Assembly: GCA_044238215.1 (NCBI GenBank)
Contig: JBIIDW010000001.1
Span: 1 to 26,604, forward strand
Source of the DNA: Steroidobacteraceae bacterium
Lineage (GTDB): Bacteria > Pseudomonadota > Gammaproteobacteria > Steroidobacterales > Steroidobacteraceae
Length of the DNA stretch: 26,604 nucleotides
Direction of reading: 5' to 3'
Below are positions 14,466-18,410 of this stretch, piece by piece. Below the pieces are notes generated by a model. It was given only the letters and a program-made list of their open reading frames with translations. It searched no databases and had not been told where the DNA came from. Each line of letters starts with the position of its first letter. The stretch's first letter is position 1. The translations under genes were made by a program, and so were the position numbers.

Positions 14466-15170
14466 TCACCTCTTCGGTGCGGGGCCGGGCAGCACGATGG
14501 TCGGGTCGGTCAGCAGGCGCCGCAGGTAGTCGGGCGCGATGAACTGGCAGTGGTGGCGTGTGGTGGCCGACTCGGCGGCCTTGCCACGTGCGCCAGGCGG
14601 CGCGTCGGTCCAGGCGCGGGCGACGATGCGCAGCGCGCCGCGCCGGTCGACCGAGGCGAATTCGTAGGGCTCGAAGGCCGCGTCGGCGCCCGCCACGGTG
14701 GCGTCGACGTCGATCACGACCTTGCGCGCCTTGCCGAAGGTGGCGCGCGCCAGCTCCGCGGGCGAGAGCGCGCCGCGCACGGCTTCGAGCGTGTTGCGGT
14801 TGACCTGGCCGCAGGTCGCCTCGCGGCCCGCGCTGCCCTCGCCGTGCGCCGTGCGGATCGCCGCCGCTGCGATGAGCTTGCAGGAGATCGTGCGGGCGCC
14901 GCTGCGGCCCGGGCCGTCGTAGGTCGTGTACTGGTGGACCGTCAGCGGCTGCACCGCGGCTGCGGCGCGCGCGAACGATGCGGCGCCGTCGTGCACCTGG
15001 CTGGTGCTGCGCAGGCCCGTGCCCGCGATGTAGTTCTGGGCACGGCCGCAGAACTCGGCCTCGGGCCAGACCGCGGGCGGTGCGGCGGCCCGCGCGGGCC
15101 CGGCCACGGTTCCCGCGATGGCGAGCAGCCCCGCGCAGAGTGCGGCGACGGGCATGGGGCGACGGTTCAT
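14466..15170 (-). CDS. Secreted hypothetical protein with four cysteines
   Basis: Signal-peptide-like N-terminus (MNRRPMPVAALCAGLLAIAGTVAGPARA) and high GC3 codon pattern. Mature-region Cys in EFCGR, ISCKL, ATCGQ and HHCQF. The stop is 5 bp before the OmpA ATG. No family recognised. Confidence 0.7.
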   Translation of the reverse strand: MNRRPMPVAALCAGLLAIAGTVAGPARAAAPPAVWPEAEFCGRAQNYIAGTGLRSTSQVHDGAASFARAAAAVQPLTVHQYTTYDGPGRSGARTISCKLIAAAAIRTAHGEGSAGREATCGQVNRNTLEAVRGALSPAELARATFGKARKVVIDVDATVAGADAAFEPYEFASVDRRGALRIVARAWTDAPPGARGKAAESATTRHHCQFIAPDYLRRLLTDPTIVLPGPAPKR

Positions 15171-15246: not shown

Positions 15247-16356
15247 ATGAGGACATGCCGCAGTCGAATGGGGTTCCGCGCAGCGGCGGTCGTTGCCCTG
15301 GCGCTCGCGGTCTGCGCCGCCGTACCCGCTGCGCCCGCTGCCACGGCGGCGGCCACGCGTGCCGTGGCGCCCGGTCCCGTCGCCGACTGCGACCGCCTCG
15401 CAGCGCACCCGGAGGATCCGCAGAAGGTCACGCCCGGGCTGCCGGCGGAGCAGGTCGACTACCCGGCGGCCATCGCGGCCTGCGAGGCGGCCGTCGCTGC
15501 CGAGCCCGCCAACATGCGCGTGCGCTACCAGCTCGCCCGCGTGCTCTTCTACTCGAACTCGAACGAGCGCGCGGTCGAGCAGATGCGCATCGCCGCCGAC
15601 GCCGGCTACGTGCAGGCCCAGTACATCTTCGCGACCTTCATCGCCCGCGGCCGACCCTACGCGCCCACCGACATCTGCCTCGCCGAGCAGTACTGGCGCA
15701 AGGCCGCGGACGCGCGCCGCCAGTCGGCGCGCGTGCAGTACGTGCGCTACGCGCTGCGCGAGCGCTTCGCCGGTTGCCCCGGCGCCGCCGGCTGGGCCGA
15801 GATGCGCGCGATGCTCGACGCCGCCGCGAAGGACGCGGTCGGCATCTACCAGCAGGCCATCGTCGAGGACCTCGGCGCGGCGCTGGCGGCGCGGCTGCCC
15901 GACGCGCCGCTCGCCGCGTGGCGCGCCTGCGCCGCCCAGCTCGGCATGCCGGCCGACCAGCCGGTGCGGCTGCGCCGCTTCGGTGACAACCCGCGCAGCA
16001 CCGGCTGGATCAATGCGCTGATCCTGTCCGGCGAGAAGACGATGACCGCGATGACCCCCTGGGTCTACGAGCGCGACCCGGCGCAGCGCCCGTTCGAGGG
16101 CGGCTACTCGGTGATGGCGGATGCGGACGGCAAGCCACTCGCCGTGCTGCGCACGACGCAGCTGCGGACCAAGGCCTTCGACGCGGTCACCGCCGACGAC
16201 AGCCAGTACGAGGGCAAGCCGGTGCGCCCGCTCGAGGAGTGGCGGCGCGTGCACCGCGACTACTTCACGCGCACGCTGGCGCCGCTCGGCCGCCAGTGGG
16301 CGCCGGACATGCCCGTGACGCTGGAGCGGTTCGAGGTCGCCTGCCGCGTGCCGTGA
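15247..16356 (+). CDS. Signal peptide plus Sel1/TPR-like helical region plus C-terminal ASCH (PUA-like) domain fusion
   Basis: Start is ATG 15247 or 15268. Leader RAAAVVALALAVCAAVPAAPA, cap CDRLAAHPEDP, and Sel1-like AADAGYVQAQY...AEQYWRKAAD. From about 15979: FGD...LILSGEKTMT...GGYSVMADADGKPLAVLRTT..AFDAVT.DDSQYEG...LEEWRRVHRDYF...VTLERFEV, a typical stand-alone ASCH sequence pattern. Confidence 0.8.
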   Translation: MRTCRSRMGFRAAAVVALALAVCAAVPAAPAATAAATRAVAPGPVADCDRLAAHPEDPQKVTPGLPAEQVDYPAAIAACEAAVAAEPANMRVRYQLARVLFYSNSNERAVEQMRIAADAGYVQAQYIFATFIARGRPYAPTDICLAEQYWRKAADARRQSARVQYVRYALRERFAGCPGAAGWAEMRAMLDAAAKDAVGIYQQAIVEDLGAALAARLPDAPLAAWRACAAQLGMPADQPVRLRRFGDNPRSTGWINALILSGEKTMTAMTPWVYERDPAQRPFEGGYSVMADADGKPLAVLRTTQLRTKAFDAVTADDSQYEGKPVRPLEEWRRVHRDYFTRTLAPLGRQWAPDMPVTLERFEVACRVP

Positions 16357-17174
16357 GCGCGCCGCTGCTGACCGCCGCCGTGCATCGCGCGCTGCGCGCC
16401 GCGCTCGAGGCCGGCGCGGCGGGGTGCCGCTGCTCGCTCGACCTCGGCCGGACCACCGTCGAGGCCGGCGTCGCACCCGCCGGATGGACGTTCGCCGGCA
16501 CGGCCTACCCGTGGATGGCAGCCTGCCGCGAGCGCACCGTCTATGCGTGGAACGGCACGGCCTTCGAGCCGCTGGCGTACTACGGCGCCGCGCTGGTCAA
16601 GCTGGTGCCCACCGACTGGGGGCCGCCGACCTTCGAGATCGACGGCATCAAGATGCTGCCGACCGCAGCGGTCTCGCCGCTCGAGGACGCGCGCCGCAAG
16701 GTCGCGCTCGTGCGGCCTGCAGGCGCGGCGATCCTCGACACCTGCGGCGGACTCGGTTACTTCGCCGCCTGCGCGCTCGAGGCCGGGGCCGCCAGCGTGC
16801 TGTCCTTCGAGAAGAGTCCCGAGGTGCGCTGGCTGCGCGAGCACAACCCCTGGTCGCCGCCCGCAGGCGGCGCGCTGACGCTGGTCGCCGACGACGTCGC
16901 CGCGCGACTTCCGCAGCTGCCGGCGCGCGGCTTCGACGCGATCCTGCACGATCCCCCGCGCTTCGGCATCGCCGGCGAGCTGTACTCGGCCGCGTTCTAC
17001 GCCGGTCTGGCGCGTGTGCTGCGCCCCGGCGGCCGGCTGTTCCACTGGACCGGGGCGCCCAACAGCCGTTCGCGCGGCCGCGACCTCGCGCGGGAGGTGA
17101 TCCGGCGGCTCGCGGCGGCCGGCTTCGACGCGCGGCCCGAGGGCGACGGCGTGTTCGCCATCCGGCGACGTTGA
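16353..17174 (+). CDS. Class I SAM-dependent methyltransferase, COG2521 / MnmC-methyltransferase-like family
   Basis: GTG 16353 overlaps the upstream TGA. SLDLGRT, KLVPT.WGPPTFEIDGIKM, motif I ILDTCGGLGY, LSFEK, FDAILHDPPRF and RVLRPGGRLFHWTG. Confidence 0.8.
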   Translation: MSAPLLTAAVHRALRAALEAGAAGCRCSLDLGRTTVEAGVAPAGWTFAGTAYPWMAACRERTVYAWNGTAFEPLAYYGAALVKLVPTDWGPPTFEIDGIKMLPTAAVSPLEDARRKVALVRPAGAAILDTCGGLGYFAACALEAGAASVLSFEKSPEVRWLREHNPWSPPAGGALTLVADDVAARLPQLPARGFDAILHDPPRFGIAGELYSAAFYAGLARVLRPGGRLFHWTGAPNSRSRGRDLAREVIRRLAAAGFDARPEGDGVFAIRRR

Positions 17175-17205: not shown

Positions 17206-17883
17206 ATGAGCGGCATCGACGTGGAGGCGGGCGGTCTCGGGATCGACGACGAATTCCGCGTGGTCGCGCACCCCGCGGAAGGCGTCTCGCTGCACCAGCA
17301 CGTGCTGCGCACCGACGTGTCCGGCATGCCGCTGGAGTGGATCGACTACCGCGAAGCGGCCCGGCTCTACCACCAGGACCAGGTGGCCTACACCTGCGGT
17401 ACGCCGATCTTCCGGCTGATGGGCGGCACCAACGCGCTCACCGGCGAGCGCACGGTGCTCGAGGTCAACTCGATCGTCGCCACCCGCGGGCACACCGGCA
17501 ACCCCGGCCACTCCCGCCACGACTACGTGCCGCCGCTCAACAACCAGACGCTGTTCCGGCGCGACGGCTACCTCTGTCTCTACTGCGGCCAGCGCTTCGC
17601 CCCGCGCGAGCTGTCGCGCGACCACGTGCGGCCGTTCTGCCAGGGCGGCCGCGACGCCTGGAACAACGTCGTCACGGCCTGCCGTCGCTGCAACAACTTC
17701 AAGGCCTACCGCACGCCCGAACAGGCGCGGATGCAGCTGATCGCGGTGCCGTTCACGCCGACCTACGCCGAGTACATCTTCCTGAAGGGCCGCCGGGTGC
17801 TGTTCGACCAGATGGCCTACCTGATCGCCCACTTCCCCCGCAGCAGCCCGTTGCACGGCCGGCTGCGCCAACTGCTGAGCTGA
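17206..17883 (+). CDS. HNH endonuclease (zinc-binding McrA/HNH_5 type)
   Basis: LFRRDGYLCLYCG...LSRDHVRP..QGG.DAWNNVVTACRRCNNFK.RTPEQA.M.L: CxxC, DH, N, CxxC and N motifs. Confidence 0.92.
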   Translation: MSGIDVEAGGLGIDDEFRVVAHPAEGVSLHQHVLRTDVSGMPLEWIDYREAARLYHQDQVAYTCGTPIFRLMGGTNALTGERTVLEVNSIVATRGHTGNPGHSRHDYVPPLNNQTLFRRDGYLCLYCGQRFAPRELSRDHVRPFCQGGRDAWNNVVTACRRCNNFKAYRTPEQARMQLIAVPFTPTYAEYIFLKGRRVLFDQMAYLIAHFPRSSPLHGRLRQLLS

Positions 17884-17888
17884 ACCCC

Positions 17889-18410
17889 ATGCCCCACGTC
17901 AGTCAGATGGTCCGCGCCGCGCTGATGGTCTCCGACCTCGACGCCAGCCGCGAGTTCTACGGCACCGTGCTCGGCCTCACCGAGGTCTACATGGAAGGCG
18001 TCGCCAAGGGCGGCACGATGCACGCGCTGATCGGCATGCCCGCCACGATTACCACGCGCACCTGCATCCTCAAGGCGCCGGGGCGGCCTTCCTGGGGCAT
18101 GGTCGGCCTGTTCGAGGTGCGCGACCCGCAGCCGCCGCGCCTGCAGCGCAACAACACCACGTCGAACGTCGGCGAGCTGTGCATGGTCTTCTACTGCGAC
18201 GATCTCGACCCGGTGTACGCCGAGGCGCAGCGGCGCGGCCTGCCGGTGCTCGCGCCGCCGCAGCCGCTGCGCGTGCGCGGCCACGTCAAGCAGCGCGAGA
18301 TGACCTTCCGCGGCCCCGACGGCGAGAAGATCAACCTGATCGAGTGGGACATCGCGCGCGCCGAGTCGGGCGACCGGCCCGAGCTCTGGCCCGGCGTGCC
18401 CGAAGGCTGA
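17889..18410 (+). CDS. VOC/glyoxalase-superfamily protein
   Basis: AALMVSDLDASREFYGTVLGL, LCMVFYCDDLDPVY and REMTFRGPDGEKINLIE. Confidence 0.85.
   Translation: MPHVSQMVRAALMVSDLDASREFYGTVLGLTEVYMEGVAKGGTMHALIGMPATITTRTCILKAPGRPSWGMVGLFEVRDPQPPRLQRNNTTSNVGELCMVFYCDDLDPVYAEAQRRGLPVLAPPQPLRVRGHVKQREMTFRGPDGEKINLIEWDIARAESGDRPELWPGVPEG

What the first reader, a model, noticed from the sequence alone, without database searches (positions are those of the whole stretch)
15247..16356. Apparently exported protein fusing Sel1-like repeats to an ASCH domain
Seen: one uninterrupted frame with uniform codon bias joins a convincing Sec-type leader, a CDRLAAHPEDP cap with Sel1/TPR-like helices and five Cys after the leader, and a complete C-terminal ASCH domain with its GxKTxT motif (GEKTMT). 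Established: ASCH is a PUA-like nucleic-acid-binding fold, usually a small cytoplasmic stand-alone protein. Characterised members include the N4-acetylcytidine amidohydrolase YqfB and an RNase from Zymomonas. Sel1 repeats are typically envelope protein-interaction modules. Inference: a periplasmic ASCH would be unexpected and might scavenge or de-modify nucleosides or RNA fragments outside the cytoplasm. Alternatively, it is a recent read-through fusion of two formerly separate genes.
Basis: partly seen in the sequence, partly recalled or inferred. Interest (0 to 1): 0.72.

Follow-up and report, generated by a model that had tools for sequence, protein, structure and literature searches.

The report
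Exported Sel1-like–ASCH two-domain protein
This is a real, conserved gene for a protein that is very probably exported to the periplasm and that joins a cysteine-braced helical-repeat module to an ASCH domain, a fold otherwise known from cytoplasmic RNA and nucleoside enzymes, so it points to an unstudied job for that fold outside the cytoplasm.

Summary
Window 15247-16356 (+) encodes one 369-aa protein with a Sec-type leader, a Sel1/TPR-like repeat domain opening with CDRLAAHPEDP, and a complete YhfF-type ASCH domain (Pfam E 4.9e-15). There are six Cys after the leader, not five.

It is not a read-through. About 50 protein clusters, 22 species genomes and about 25 metagenome contigs (Steroidobacteraceae/Acidibacter-like Gammaproteobacteria) carry the same fusion down to 49-52% identity. 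All six Cys are invariant and the leaders vary in sequence.

The ASCH half belongs to an undescribed exported group. Among 149 ASCH-domain relatives (cluster representatives), the 15 that have both C228- and C366-equivalent Cys all carry a hydrophobic leader. The leaderless ones lack the pair.

Split forms exist: repeat-domain gene, TonB-dependent receptor gene, ASCH gene, with a leader on each of the two small proteins. Fused genes usually sit beside Sec- or Tat-exported enzymes (VOC-like, M24 peptidase, flavoprotein). The window's own copy has lost these neighbours.

Best reading: a disulfide-stabilised periplasmic hydrolase acting on an imported small molecule, with the repeat domain as tether or adaptor. 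The Lys-Thr-Glu residues are kept, but the YqfB oxyanion Arg is absent. Export is well supported. Chemistry and substrate are inferred. The nucleoside/RNA-scavenging idea has no support from gene context.

The scan also noted this stretch once before in this genome (e1-5331312), not on other DNA.

The parts
15247..16356 (+). Whole CDS, 369 aa plus stop (alternative start ATG 15268)
   Evidence: The start is conserved in L001. GC3 is 0.95 overall.
15247..15375 (+). Sec-type leader plus variable Ala/Pro-rich segment (res 1-43). The hydrophobic core is about res 12-27. The cleavage site is not determined.
   Evidence: Hydrophobicity heuristic. This segment is variable in sequence and length in all 20 aligned homologues, while conservation starts at res 44-48. 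AF2 pLDDT is below 50 for res 1-38.
15376..15894 (+). Sel1/TPR-like helical-repeat domain (res 44-216): a cap helix plus about four helix pairs
   Evidence: AF2 helices. Foldseek matches to Sel1-repeat proteins 6orc, 6ork, HcpC 1ouv and AlgK. phmmer to 6ok3, E 2.9e-4. Stand-alone paralogues cover exactly this part.
15388..15420 (+). Cap motif CDRLAAHPEDP (res 48-58)
   Evidence: C48, D49, A52, P55 and D57 are invariant in alignments A1 and A2.
15388..15777 (+). Span holding the four invariant Cys of the repeat domain: C48 (15388-15390), C79 (15481-15483), C144 (15676-15678), C177 (15775-15777). Inferred to form two disulfides.
   Evidence: Invariant in 20 fused proteins and 12 stand-alone repeat-domain proteins. 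The pairing is inferred, not measured.
15901..16353 (+). ASCH module (res 219-369), including its N-terminal helix. Pfam ASCH core is res 257-364 (16015-16338).
   Evidence: Pfam. 1t62 and 3s9x by sequence and by fold, TM 0.81 and 0.74.
15928..15930 (+). C228, in the N-terminal helix of the ASCH module. Inferred disulfide partner of C366.
   Evidence: Found together with the C366 equivalent only in leader-bearing ASCH relatives: 15 of 15, against 0 of the others.
16342..16344 (+). C366, in the last beta-strand. Inferred disulfide partner of C228.
16030..16053 (+). ASCH octapeptide G262-E-K264-T-M-T267-A-M269 (family consensus GEKTITAT)
   Evidence: G262, K264 and T267 are invariant. The position matching YqfB Arg26 is M here and T, S, G or A in relatives.
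16210..16212 (+). E322, invariant acidic residue. Inferred counterpart of YqfB Glu74.
   Evidence: Invariant in A1. It is E or D in nearly all 149 relatives. The equivalence to Glu74 is inferred.

Best explanation
The gene encodes a Sec-exported, soluble periplasmic protein made of two modules. After export, three disulfides are inferred to form: two inside the Sel1-like repeat domain (C48, C79, C144, C177) and one clamping the N-terminal helix of the ASCH module to its last strand (C228-C366). The ASCH module is a YhfF-type PUA-like barrel. It keeps the Lys/Thr of the ASCH octapeptide and an invariant Glu, so it most likely hydrolyses an amide (N-acyl-type) bond in a small molecule that reaches the periplasm through a TonB-dependent receptor. 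This would be one step of a periplasmic trimming pathway that also uses exported VOC-like, M24 and flavoprotein enzymes, before uptake by an MFS transporter. The repeat domain is a protein-interaction module that tethers or positions the ASCH enzyme. In some genomes it is a separate exported protein encoded on the other side of the receptor gene. Shown here: gene reality, conservation of the fusion, the leader/Cys signature, fold assignments and gene neighbourhoods. Inferred: actual export and cleavage, disulfide pairing, hydrolase chemistry, the nature of the substrate, and the role of the repeat domain.
For: Conservation:
- The fusion is conserved in about 50 clusters at 90% identity, 22 species genomes and about 25 metagenome contigs.
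- All 49 fused homologues that show the cap motif (one cluster, P0038, did not match the motif pattern) have exactly six Cys from the cap onward.
- 42 of those 49 pass a strict leader heuristic. The rest are near threshold or N-terminally truncated.
- Leaders vary freely, while the mature part is 52-96% identical.

Leader/Cys signature:
- Among 149 representatives found with the ASCH half, 15 have both Cys, and all 15 have a 23-71-residue pre-region with a hydrophobic core.
- Leaderless 150-160-aa relatives lack the pair.
- The cytoplasmic 1t62 has no Cys at the first position.
- Stand-alone repeat-domain proteins keep only the first four Cys.
- In a tree of the ASCH core with the Cys columns removed, 59 leaderless proteins form one 100/100 clade apart from the fused and leader-bearing forms.

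Split and variant architectures:
- The split operon repeat-domain / TonB receptor / ASCH, each small protein with its own leader, occurs in L026, L027, L084 and L086.
- The receptor gene lies directly upstream of the stand-alone ASCH in 6 of 6 such contigs.
- L054: leader + alpha/beta-hydrolase + ASCH, beside a Tat-M24 peptidase.
- P0059: leader + ASCH + RidA.
- L030: an ASCH gene 2 kb from a tandem repeat-domain protein.

Neighbours of the fused gene:
- A convergent Sec-leader VOC-like protein in 12 of 28 genome-derived loci (11 of them beside the fused gene) and in most longer metagenome contigs.
- A Tat-signal FAD_binding_2 protein and a Tat-signal M24 peptidase.
- MFS, a methyltransferase and an alpha/beta-hydrolase.

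Structure and motif:
- AF2 model pLDDT 87. The C-terminal domain matches 1t62 (TM 0.81) and YqfB 9kyf (TM 0.74). The N-terminal domain matches Sel1-repeat proteins.
- K264, T267 and E322 are invariant. Lys, Thr and Glu are the catalytic residues of YqfB (PMC6972931).
Against: - There is no experimental datum for any member. All sequences come from metagenome-assembled genomes or metagenomes.
- The leader call rests on a hydrophobicity heuristic plus comparison. SignalP was not available.
- I had no model coordinates, so the disulfide geometry was not checked.
- The octapeptide lacks the terminal Arg (M269 here). In YqfB that Arg is essential (Arg26Ala is inactive). The non-Arg variants have not been tested by anyone, so catalytic competence is uncertain.
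- The window's own copy, and its closest kin L001-L003, lack the receptor, VOC, M24 and flavoprotein neighbours. It sits between housekeeping-type genes.
- The neighbour families are multi-copy in this genome, so some adjacency may be chance.
- The fused-locus contigs come from related lineages and are not independent.
- Whether fusion or split came first is unresolved.
Confidence: 0.6

Rival explanations
1. Periplasmic nucleoside or RNA-fragment de-modification. The exported ASCH removes N-acyl groups such as ac4C from nucleosides or oligonucleotides outside the cytoplasm, for salvage.
For: Characterised ASCH proteins act on ac4C as a free nucleoside or in tRNA. Lys and Thr of the octapeptide are kept. 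The fold matches YqfB, TM 0.74 by target.
Against: The Arg26 equivalent, essential in YqfB, is missing. No nuclease, nucleotidase or nucleoside-transporter gene recurs next to any of about 60 loci. The recurrent partners are VOC-like, M24, flavoprotein, alpha/beta-hydrolase and RidA. The genome keeps a separate leaderless ASCH for cytoplasmic duty (C38).
Confidence: 0.12
2. A non-catalytic periplasmic binding or adaptor protein. The ASCH barrel only binds a ligand, or a partner protein, delivered by the TonB-dependent receptor. Together with the repeat domain it acts as a shuttle, sensor or scaffold.
For: PUA-like barrels are often pure binding modules. The oxyanion Arg is absent. The gene sits next to a receptor in the way periplasmic binding proteins do. 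Sel1-like repeats are interaction modules.
Against: K264, T267 and E322 are invariant across the fused family and nearly so across 149 relatives, which is typical of catalytic residues. The ASCH domain is repeatedly fused to enzymes: alpha/beta-hydrolase and RidA here, and deacetylase, RibD and aminotransferase in AlphaFold DB entries.
Confidence: 0.15
3. Not released into the periplasm. The N-terminal hydrophobic stretch is an uncleaved signal-anchor, or is not used, so the protein is membrane-tethered or cytoplasmic.
For: The c-region of the window protein is Ala/Pro-rich, with no single clear AxA site. No experimental localisation exists.
Against: Many homologues have canonical sites such as AKA/D, AQA/E or VHA/A a few residues before the conserved cap. 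Six invariant Cys in an even-numbered, module-wise pattern argue for an oxidising compartment. A signal-anchor would still place both domains outside the cytoplasm.
Confidence: 0.07
4. Assembly or annotation artefact: a missed stop or frameshift joins two separate genes.
For: One relative (L022) has the two halves in different frames, with the break at about 4313-4318. Genuine split forms exist (L026, L027).
Against: The same uninterrupted frame occurs in about 50 independent clusters from different samples and assemblers. GC3 is 0.97 on both sides. The linker varies in length but stays in frame. In true split forms a 2.3-kb receptor gene lies between the halves, and the ASCH half has its own leader.
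Confidence: 0.01

Closest known systems
EF3133 of Enterococcus faecalis (PDB 1t62, former DUF984, 'YhfF' type) and the Lactobacillus crispatus ASCH domain (PDB 3s9x)
   Same: This is the closest solved relative of the C-terminal half. phmmer E 2.2e-15; profile of exported relatives E 1.7e-26. Foldseek TM 0.81, rmsd 1.8 A. It has the same N-terminal helix before the barrel and the same G-x-K-T-x-T motif without a terminal Arg.
   Different: Those are leaderless, single-domain, presumably cytoplasmic proteins from structural genomics with no known function. They lack the Cys pair. There is no repeat domain and no receptor-linked gene context.
YqfB, the E. coli N4-acetylcytidine amidohydrolase (PDB 9kyf/9kyh; PMC6972931)
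   Same: ASCH barrel (Foldseek TM 0.74 by target). Octapeptide Lys and Thr are present at the same spacing. There is an invariant Glu later in the domain.
   Different: YqfB is a 103-aa cytoplasmic protein. No sequence similarity is detectable by HMMER. Arg26 (the oxyanion hole, essential) is replaced by M, T, S or G. The protein here is exported, disulfide-bearing and fused to a repeat domain.
Cysteine-rich Sel1-like repeat proteins (Helicobacter HcpC, PDB 1ouv; Oxalobacter formigenes SLR proteins 6orc/6ok3; AlgK 3e4b)
   Same: Exported helical-hairpin repeat arrays. The N-terminal half matches them by fold (6orc TM 0.74) and weakly by sequence (6ok3, E 2.9e-4). As in the Hcp proteins (from my own knowledge), Cys residues sit at helix ends in a repeat-wise pattern.
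   Different: The Pfam Sel1 model does not hit. Only sub-threshold TPR-clan models do. There is a distinctive CDRLAAHPEDP cap. The array is short (about four hairpins) and is fused to an enzyme-type domain.
TonB-dependent substrate-utilisation loci (my own comparison: Xanthomonas CUT loci, Bacteroidota PULs)
   Same: An outer-membrane TonB-dependent receptor is encoded with exported processing enzymes and an inner-membrane transporter.
   Different: There are no glycoside hydrolases or SusD-type partners. The enzyme set is ASCH, VOC-like, M24, flavoprotein and cupin DUF4437. The substrate is unknown. The window's own copy is not in such a locus.

Membership tests
ASCH domain superfamily (Pfam PF04266) | Match to the family HMM above the gathering score | tested here: met
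   56.5 bits against a cutoff of 21.2, E 4.9e-15, res 257-364, profile positions 9-101 of 103.
ASCH domain superfamily (Pfam PF04266) | PUA-like beta-barrel fold | tested here: met
   In the AF2 model (mean pLDDT 87) the 10-residue-block pLDDT of this half is 86-97. Foldseek 1t62 TM 0.81, 3s9x 0.74, YqfB 0.74.
ASCH domain superfamily (Pfam PF04266) | Octapeptide G-x-K-x-x-[E/T/S]-x-R | tested here: inconclusive
   G262, K264 and T267 are present and invariant. The terminal R is replaced (M269 here; T in most fused homologues). Such non-R bacterial variants are acknowledged but untested in 10.64898/2026.02.27.708502.
YqfB-type N4-acylcytidine amidohydrolase | Lys21/Thr24/Glu74 plus Arg26 as oxyanion hole (all needed for activity) | tested here: not met
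   The Lys and Thr equivalents are present and E322 is a plausible Glu. The Arg26 equivalent is absent in the whole family.
YqfB-type N4-acylcytidine amidohydrolase | Hydrolysis of ac4C and N4-acylcytosines | not testable with these tools
   Needs an enzyme assay.
YhfF/DUF984-type ASCH (1t62-like) | Significant sequence similarity over the whole module, including the N-terminal helix | tested here: met
   phmmer 2.2e-15 over res 244-365. Profile of exported relatives against 1t62, E 1.7e-26, covering chain residues 4-149.
Sel1-like repeat (SLR) proteins (Pfam PF08238) | Match to the Sel1 HMM | tested here: not met
   No Sel1 hit at E <= 0.1. TPR_Slam, TPR_19/20 and ANAPC3 are all below their cutoffs. 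Distant homologues of the cap + repeat region (P0065-P0070) do carry PF08238.
Sel1-like repeat (SLR) proteins (Pfam PF08238) | Array of antiparallel helix pairs forming a superhelix, similar to solved SLR proteins | tested here: met
   Eight repeat helices plus a cap helix between res 44 and 215. Foldseek 6orc E 3.6e-4, TM 0.74; also 6ork, 5b26, 1ouv, 3e4b. phmmer 6ok3 2.9e-4.
Sec (SPase I) secretory proteins | Tripartite signal peptide (basic n-region, hydrophobic h-region, c-region with small residues at -3 and -1) | tested here: inconclusive
   n- and h-regions are clear (4 Arg; KD 2.99). The c-region is Ala/Pro-rich with several candidate sites. Homologues show canonical AxA sites. No dedicated predictor was available.
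Sec (SPase I) secretory proteins | No twin-arginine motif and no lipobox (which would mean another route) | tested here: met
   There is no RR-x-F-L-K motif. LAVC at res 20-23 has Val at -1 and is not conserved in homologues.
Sec (SPase I) secretory proteins | Actual translocation and cleavage | not testable with these tools
   Needs fractionation, a PhoA fusion or N-terminal sequencing.

The most novel reading that the evidence does not exclude
The leader-bearing, Cys-pair ASCH proteins are the first extracytoplasmic branch of the ASCH superfamily, and their substrate is not a nucleic acid. They would be periplasmic deacylases/amidohydrolases of a previously undescribed TonB-dependent import-and-trimming pathway, made of a receptor, the SLR adaptor, ASCH, an exported VOC-like enzyme, a Tat-M24 peptidase, a Tat-flavoprotein and an MFS transporter. 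The pathway would take up an N-acylated or peptide-like natural compound. The Sel1-like domain would dock the enzyme to the receptor or to partner enzymes. The fused gene in this window is the covalent version of that pair.
Probability: 0.3. Interest if true: 0.75.

Novelty: new variant of a known kind. Interest (0 to 1): 0.55.

Why it matters
ASCH domains are currently being defined as cytoplasmic or nuclear ac4C erasers and RNA-binding modules. A conserved, disulfide-braced ASCH branch that is exported would show that the fold has a second, non-RNA line of work. It is encoded with TonB-dependent receptors and other exported enzymes. The bacterial octapeptide variants lacking the terminal Arg were explicitly left untested in the latest survey. 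This branch gives a concrete handle on them. The fused, split and domain-swapped versions (SLR, alpha/beta-hydrolase, RidA) give a ready-made set of constructs and gene clusters from which the substrate could be found. They may also expose a periplasmic catabolic route in Steroidobacteraceae, common but uncultured soil and freshwater bacteria. The matter is still niche and no function has been demonstrated.

Tried and rejected
1. Complex prediction of the naturally split pair from L027 (repeat domain res 38-216 with ASCH res 38-190, own alignments) gave no verdict: score 0.05 against a mark of 0.32. I draw nothing from it.
2. I looked for function in the window's own neighbours.
   - The methyltransferase whose GTG start overlaps the stop (16353-17174), the HNH nuclease and the small VOC protein stay together in L001 (87% identity).
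   - There they lie about 4 kb away from the fusion gene, and they are absent from all other loci.
   - I reject a functional coupling.
3. Context look-ups for single exported-ASCH representatives (P0072, P0084, P0087) mostly hit contigs of 1-7 kb and gave little.
4. NCBIfam naming of the cluster proteins failed. All hits were far below the family cutoffs, so no pathway name emerged.
It was repeated with 6 sequences.
6. Literature searches for ASCH with periplasm, signal peptide or YhfF found nothing relevant.
7. HMMER could not link the exported clade to YqfB. Only the fold does.
8. The disulfide geometry could not be measured, because model coordinates are not exposed.
9. The tree could not order fusion against fission. 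The fused clade (98/89 support) also contains the split-form protein P0071.
10. Lipoprotein and Tat routes were considered for this protein and rejected: there is no conserved lipobox and no RR motif.
Full report
**Observation.** Window 15247-16356 (+) is one uninterrupted frame of 369 codons.
- Third-position GC is 0.97 in both halves, against 0.55 and 0.74 for the other two frames of that strand, so the frame is coding throughout and the bias does not change at the junction.
- The N-terminus has four Arg followed by a 15-residue hydrophobic core and an Ala/Pro-rich stretch.
- CDRLAAHPEDP is at residues 48-58, and GEKTMT at 262-267.
- Pfam finds a complete ASCH domain at 257-364 (E 4.9e-15, 56.5 bits against a cutoff of 21.2). 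It finds only sub-threshold TPR-clan hits at 68-129.
- There are six Cys after the leader (48, 79, 144, 177, 228, 366), not five.

**Not a read-through.** The 5.8-billion-protein search returned about 50 clusters with the same full-length architecture, at 96% down to 52% identity.
- A scan of one genome per species found 22 loci with the fused gene. All are metagenome-assembled Steroidobacteraceae, Acidibacter, Nevskiaceae or unclassified Gammaproteobacteria. A metagenome scan added about 25 more.
- In a 20-sequence alignment the mature protein is well conserved. The linker between the domains varies in length by up to about 30 Ala/Pro-rich residues yet always stays in frame.
- One relative (L022) has the halves in two frames. 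That is a frameshift or an assembly error in that MAG.
- The own genome (2.77 Mb, 555 contigs, 74% complete) has the fusion only in this window. It also has a stand-alone repeat-domain paralogue on C119 and a leaderless ASCH on C38.

**Evidence for export.** No signal-peptide predictor was available, so I relied on comparison.
1. All 49 fused homologues that show the cap motif (P0038 did not match the motif pattern) carry a pre-region before the cap that is unconserved in sequence and length.
   - 42 of the 49 pass a strict hydrophobic-core criterion. The others are near threshold or clearly N-terminally truncated.
   - Many show textbook AxA sites just before the cap.
2. All 49 have exactly six Cys from the cap onward, and these six are invariant.
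3. Stand-alone repeat-domain proteins keep only the first four Cys.
4. I searched 1.84 billion representatives with the ASCH half alone.
   - 15 of the best 149 hits have Cys at both the C228 and C366 positions.
   - All 15 have a 23-71-residue pre-region with a hydrophobic core.
   - The ordinary 150-160-aa leaderless relatives lack the pair.
   - The cytoplasmic crystal-structure protein 1t62 has no Cys at the first position.
5. In a maximum-likelihood tree of the ASCH core with both Cys columns left out, 59 leaderless proteins form one 100/100 clade. The fused and leader-bearing forms lie on the other side. Leader-bearing forms are not a single clean clade, and about ten leaderless or fragmentary rows sit among them.

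The module-wise, even-numbered Cys pattern tied to a leader is what one expects of periplasmic disulfides. The pairings 48-79, 144-177 and 228-366 are my inference from the helix positions in the model. They were not measured.

**What the two domains are.** The AF2 model is confident: mean pLDDT 87, pTM 0.74, with residues 1-38 disordered.
- The C-terminal half superposes on EF3133 (1t62, TM 0.81, rmsd 1.8 A), on 3s9x, and on the ac4C amidohydrolase YqfB (9kyf, TM 0.74).
- The N-terminal half matches Sel1-repeat proteins: 6orc at TM 0.74, plus 6ork, SEL1L, HcpC and AlgK.
- By sequence, the N-terminal half hits the Oxalobacter Sel1 protein 6ok3 at E 2.9e-4. Very distant homologues that share the cap motif carry Pfam Sel1, some together with a caspase domain.
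- AlphaFold DB clusters contain no entry that covers both halves.

**Catalytic motif.**
- In YqfB, Lys21, Thr24 and Arg26 are each essential for activity, and Glu74Ala lowers it 100-1000-fold (PMC6972931).
- The ASCH octapeptide is G-x-K-x-x-[T/E/S]-x-R.
- Here it reads G262-E-K264-T-M-T267-A-M269. G, K and T are invariant in the family, and E322 is invariant. The Arg position is M here and T in most fused homologues. It is S, G, T or A in nearly all 149 relatives.
- The 2026 survey of 19 ASCH proteins states that bacterial sequences with substitutions at this terminal position were not included.
- The protein is therefore a YhfF-type ASCH, not a YqfB-type enzyme, and the chemistry of its subgroup is unknown.

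**Gene context.**

*In the window.* The gene lies among ordinary chromosomal genes: fmt, a histidine kinase, argS, priA, EamA transporters and an OmpA-type lipoprotein.
- Its stop overlaps the GTG of a methyltransferase-like gene, followed by an HNH nuclease and a small VOC protein.
- In L001 (87% identity) that block lies about 4 kb away, and it is absent elsewhere. I therefore do not read a functional link into the overlap.

*Split operon.*
- Four contigs (L026, L027, L084, L086) carry an operon-like row: DUF4437 cupin, repeat-domain protein with its own leader, TonB-dependent receptor, ASCH protein with its own leader and the Cys pair.
- Two further contigs (L082, L085) are cut inside the receptor gene and show receptor then ASCH.
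- So the receptor gene directly precedes the stand-alone ASCH in 6 of 6 such contigs.

*Neighbours of the fused gene.*
- It is followed by a convergent VOC-like gene of about 340 aa (11 of the 12 genome-derived loci, out of 28, that have this family, and most longer metagenome contigs), then a methyltransferase of about 400 aa and a FAD_binding_2 protein.
- MFS, HbpS-like, alpha/beta-hydrolase and M24 genes are often nearby.
- The VOC-like protein has a Sec leader. The M24 peptidase (SRREWM) and the flavoprotein (KRRIFL) have twin-arginine leaders. Several neighbours are therefore predicted periplasmic enzymes too.

*Other architectures.*
- L054: leader + alpha/beta-hydrolase + ASCH, beside a Tat-M24 peptidase.
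- P0059: leader + ASCH + RidA.
- L030: an exported ASCH 2 kb from a tandem double repeat-domain protein.
- L073: a leader and a remnant of the cap joined directly to ASCH.

*Caveat.* The neighbour families are multi-copy in this genome, and the fused-locus contigs come from related lineages. The counts therefore overstate independence.

**Most likely mechanism.**
- *Shown:* a real, conserved, leader-bearing two-module protein; a leader/Cys signature shared by an exported ASCH group; and repeated linkage of the repeat module with the ASCH module as a fusion, a split operon and a neighbour gene.
- *Inferred:*
  1. Sec export and SPase I cleavage occur somewhere in residues 28-43.
  2. Three disulfides form.
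  3. The ASCH barrel uses Lys264/Thr267/Glu322 to hydrolyse an amide-type bond in a small molecule brought in by a TonB-dependent receptor, alongside other periplasmic enzymes and before MFS uptake.
  4. The repeat domain tethers or positions the enzyme. The variable flexible linker argues for tethering, not for a composite active site.
- I put export at about 0.85, and the whole statement at 0.6.
- Rivals: nucleoside/RNA de-modification 0.12; a non-catalytic binding or adaptor protein 0.15; membrane-anchored or not exported 0.07; artefact 0.01.

**Comparison and novelty.**
- The protein is a member of the ASCH superfamily and of its YhfF/1t62-like subgroup.
- It fails the YqfB membership test, because there is no Arg26 equivalent.
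- Its N-terminal half is SLR-like by fold but not by the Pfam Sel1 model.
- I found no paper on exported or periplasmic ASCH proteins.
- I rate it a new variant of a known kind: known folds in a new compartment, a new architecture and a new gene context.

**Earlier scan notes.**
The 4-nt overlap is real, but the adjacency is not conserved in relatives.
- Two other notes (e1-4245428, e1-3993703) describe TonB-linked periplasmic clusters with exported RidA in other genomes. They are unchecked leads that fit the ASCH-RidA fusion seen here.

**Dead ends.** They are listed under Tried and rejected. They include a complex prediction for the split pair that gave no verdict.

Noticed in passing
window 16353-17174 (+), 17206-17883 (+), 17898-18410 (+): A methyltransferase-like gene whose GTG start overlaps the ASCH gene's stop by 4 nt, then an HNH endonuclease (PF14279/PF01844) and a small VOC/glyoxalase protein. 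The three stay adjacent in L001 (82-96% identity), but there they lie about 4 kb from the fusion gene.
   Followed up: partly
window 14466-15170 (-): A divergently transcribed 234-aa protein with its own signal-peptide-like N-terminus and no Pfam or NCBIfam family. It is conserved (77% identity) and syntenic in L001 only.
   Followed up: no
L022 3600-4731: In this MAG the fusion gene is broken into two overlapping frames, with the break at about 4313-4318. This is a frameshift or an assembly error, and it is the only such case among about 47 fused loci.
   Followed up: partly
P0059 (330 aa, 1.3-kb contig): Leader + exported-type ASCH + C-terminal RidA/YjgF (PF01042) fusion. It hints that the ASCH product or substrate may be an imine or enamine-forming compound. 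It is a single cluster on a short contig.
   Followed up: partly
L054 8178-9545 (+) and 9564-11111 (-): A Sec leader + alpha/beta-hydrolase + exported-type ASCH in one 455-aa protein, convergent with a twin-arginine-signal M24 peptidase/creatinase-like gene.
   Followed up: partly
L073 6001-6555 (also L074): A 184-aa protein in which a leader and the first residues of the cap motif (ECDRQAA) run straight into the ASCH module. It looks like an internal deletion of the repeat domain from a fused ancestor.
   Followed up: no
P0051, P0052 (392 aa); L030 2520-3701: The CDRLAxxPEDxD-capped four-Cys repeat domain also occurs as a tandem duplicate in one exported protein. More distantly it occurs with caspase (PF00656) and Sel1 repeats (P0065-P0070). 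It behaves as a mobile module.
   Followed up: partly
L017 4522-5928, 7088-8107 (-), 11684-13075; L027 2177-3001: A recurrent, unnamed set of predicted periplasmic enzymes: Tat-signal M24 peptidase, Sec-signal two-domain VOC-like protein, Tat-signal FAD_binding_2 flavoprotein and cupin DUF4437. With them come an MFS transporter, an HbpS-like protein and a methyltransferase of about 400 aa paired with a conserved protein of about 95 aa of no family. All NCBIfam hits are far below cutoff.
   Followed up: partly
G000 contig C38 3210-3752 (-): The same genome keeps an ordinary leaderless YhfF-type ASCH (37% identity to the exported one) next to an Lrp/AsnC-like regulator.
   Followed up: no
AlphaFold DB cluster hits to res 217-369: YhfF-type ASCH modules are fused in other bacteria to a PgdA/CDA1-type deacetylase, RibD, a class III aminotransferase and an RNase BN-like protein. 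That is a small-molecule-enzyme flavour, not an RNA one. The names are automatic annotations.
   Followed up: no
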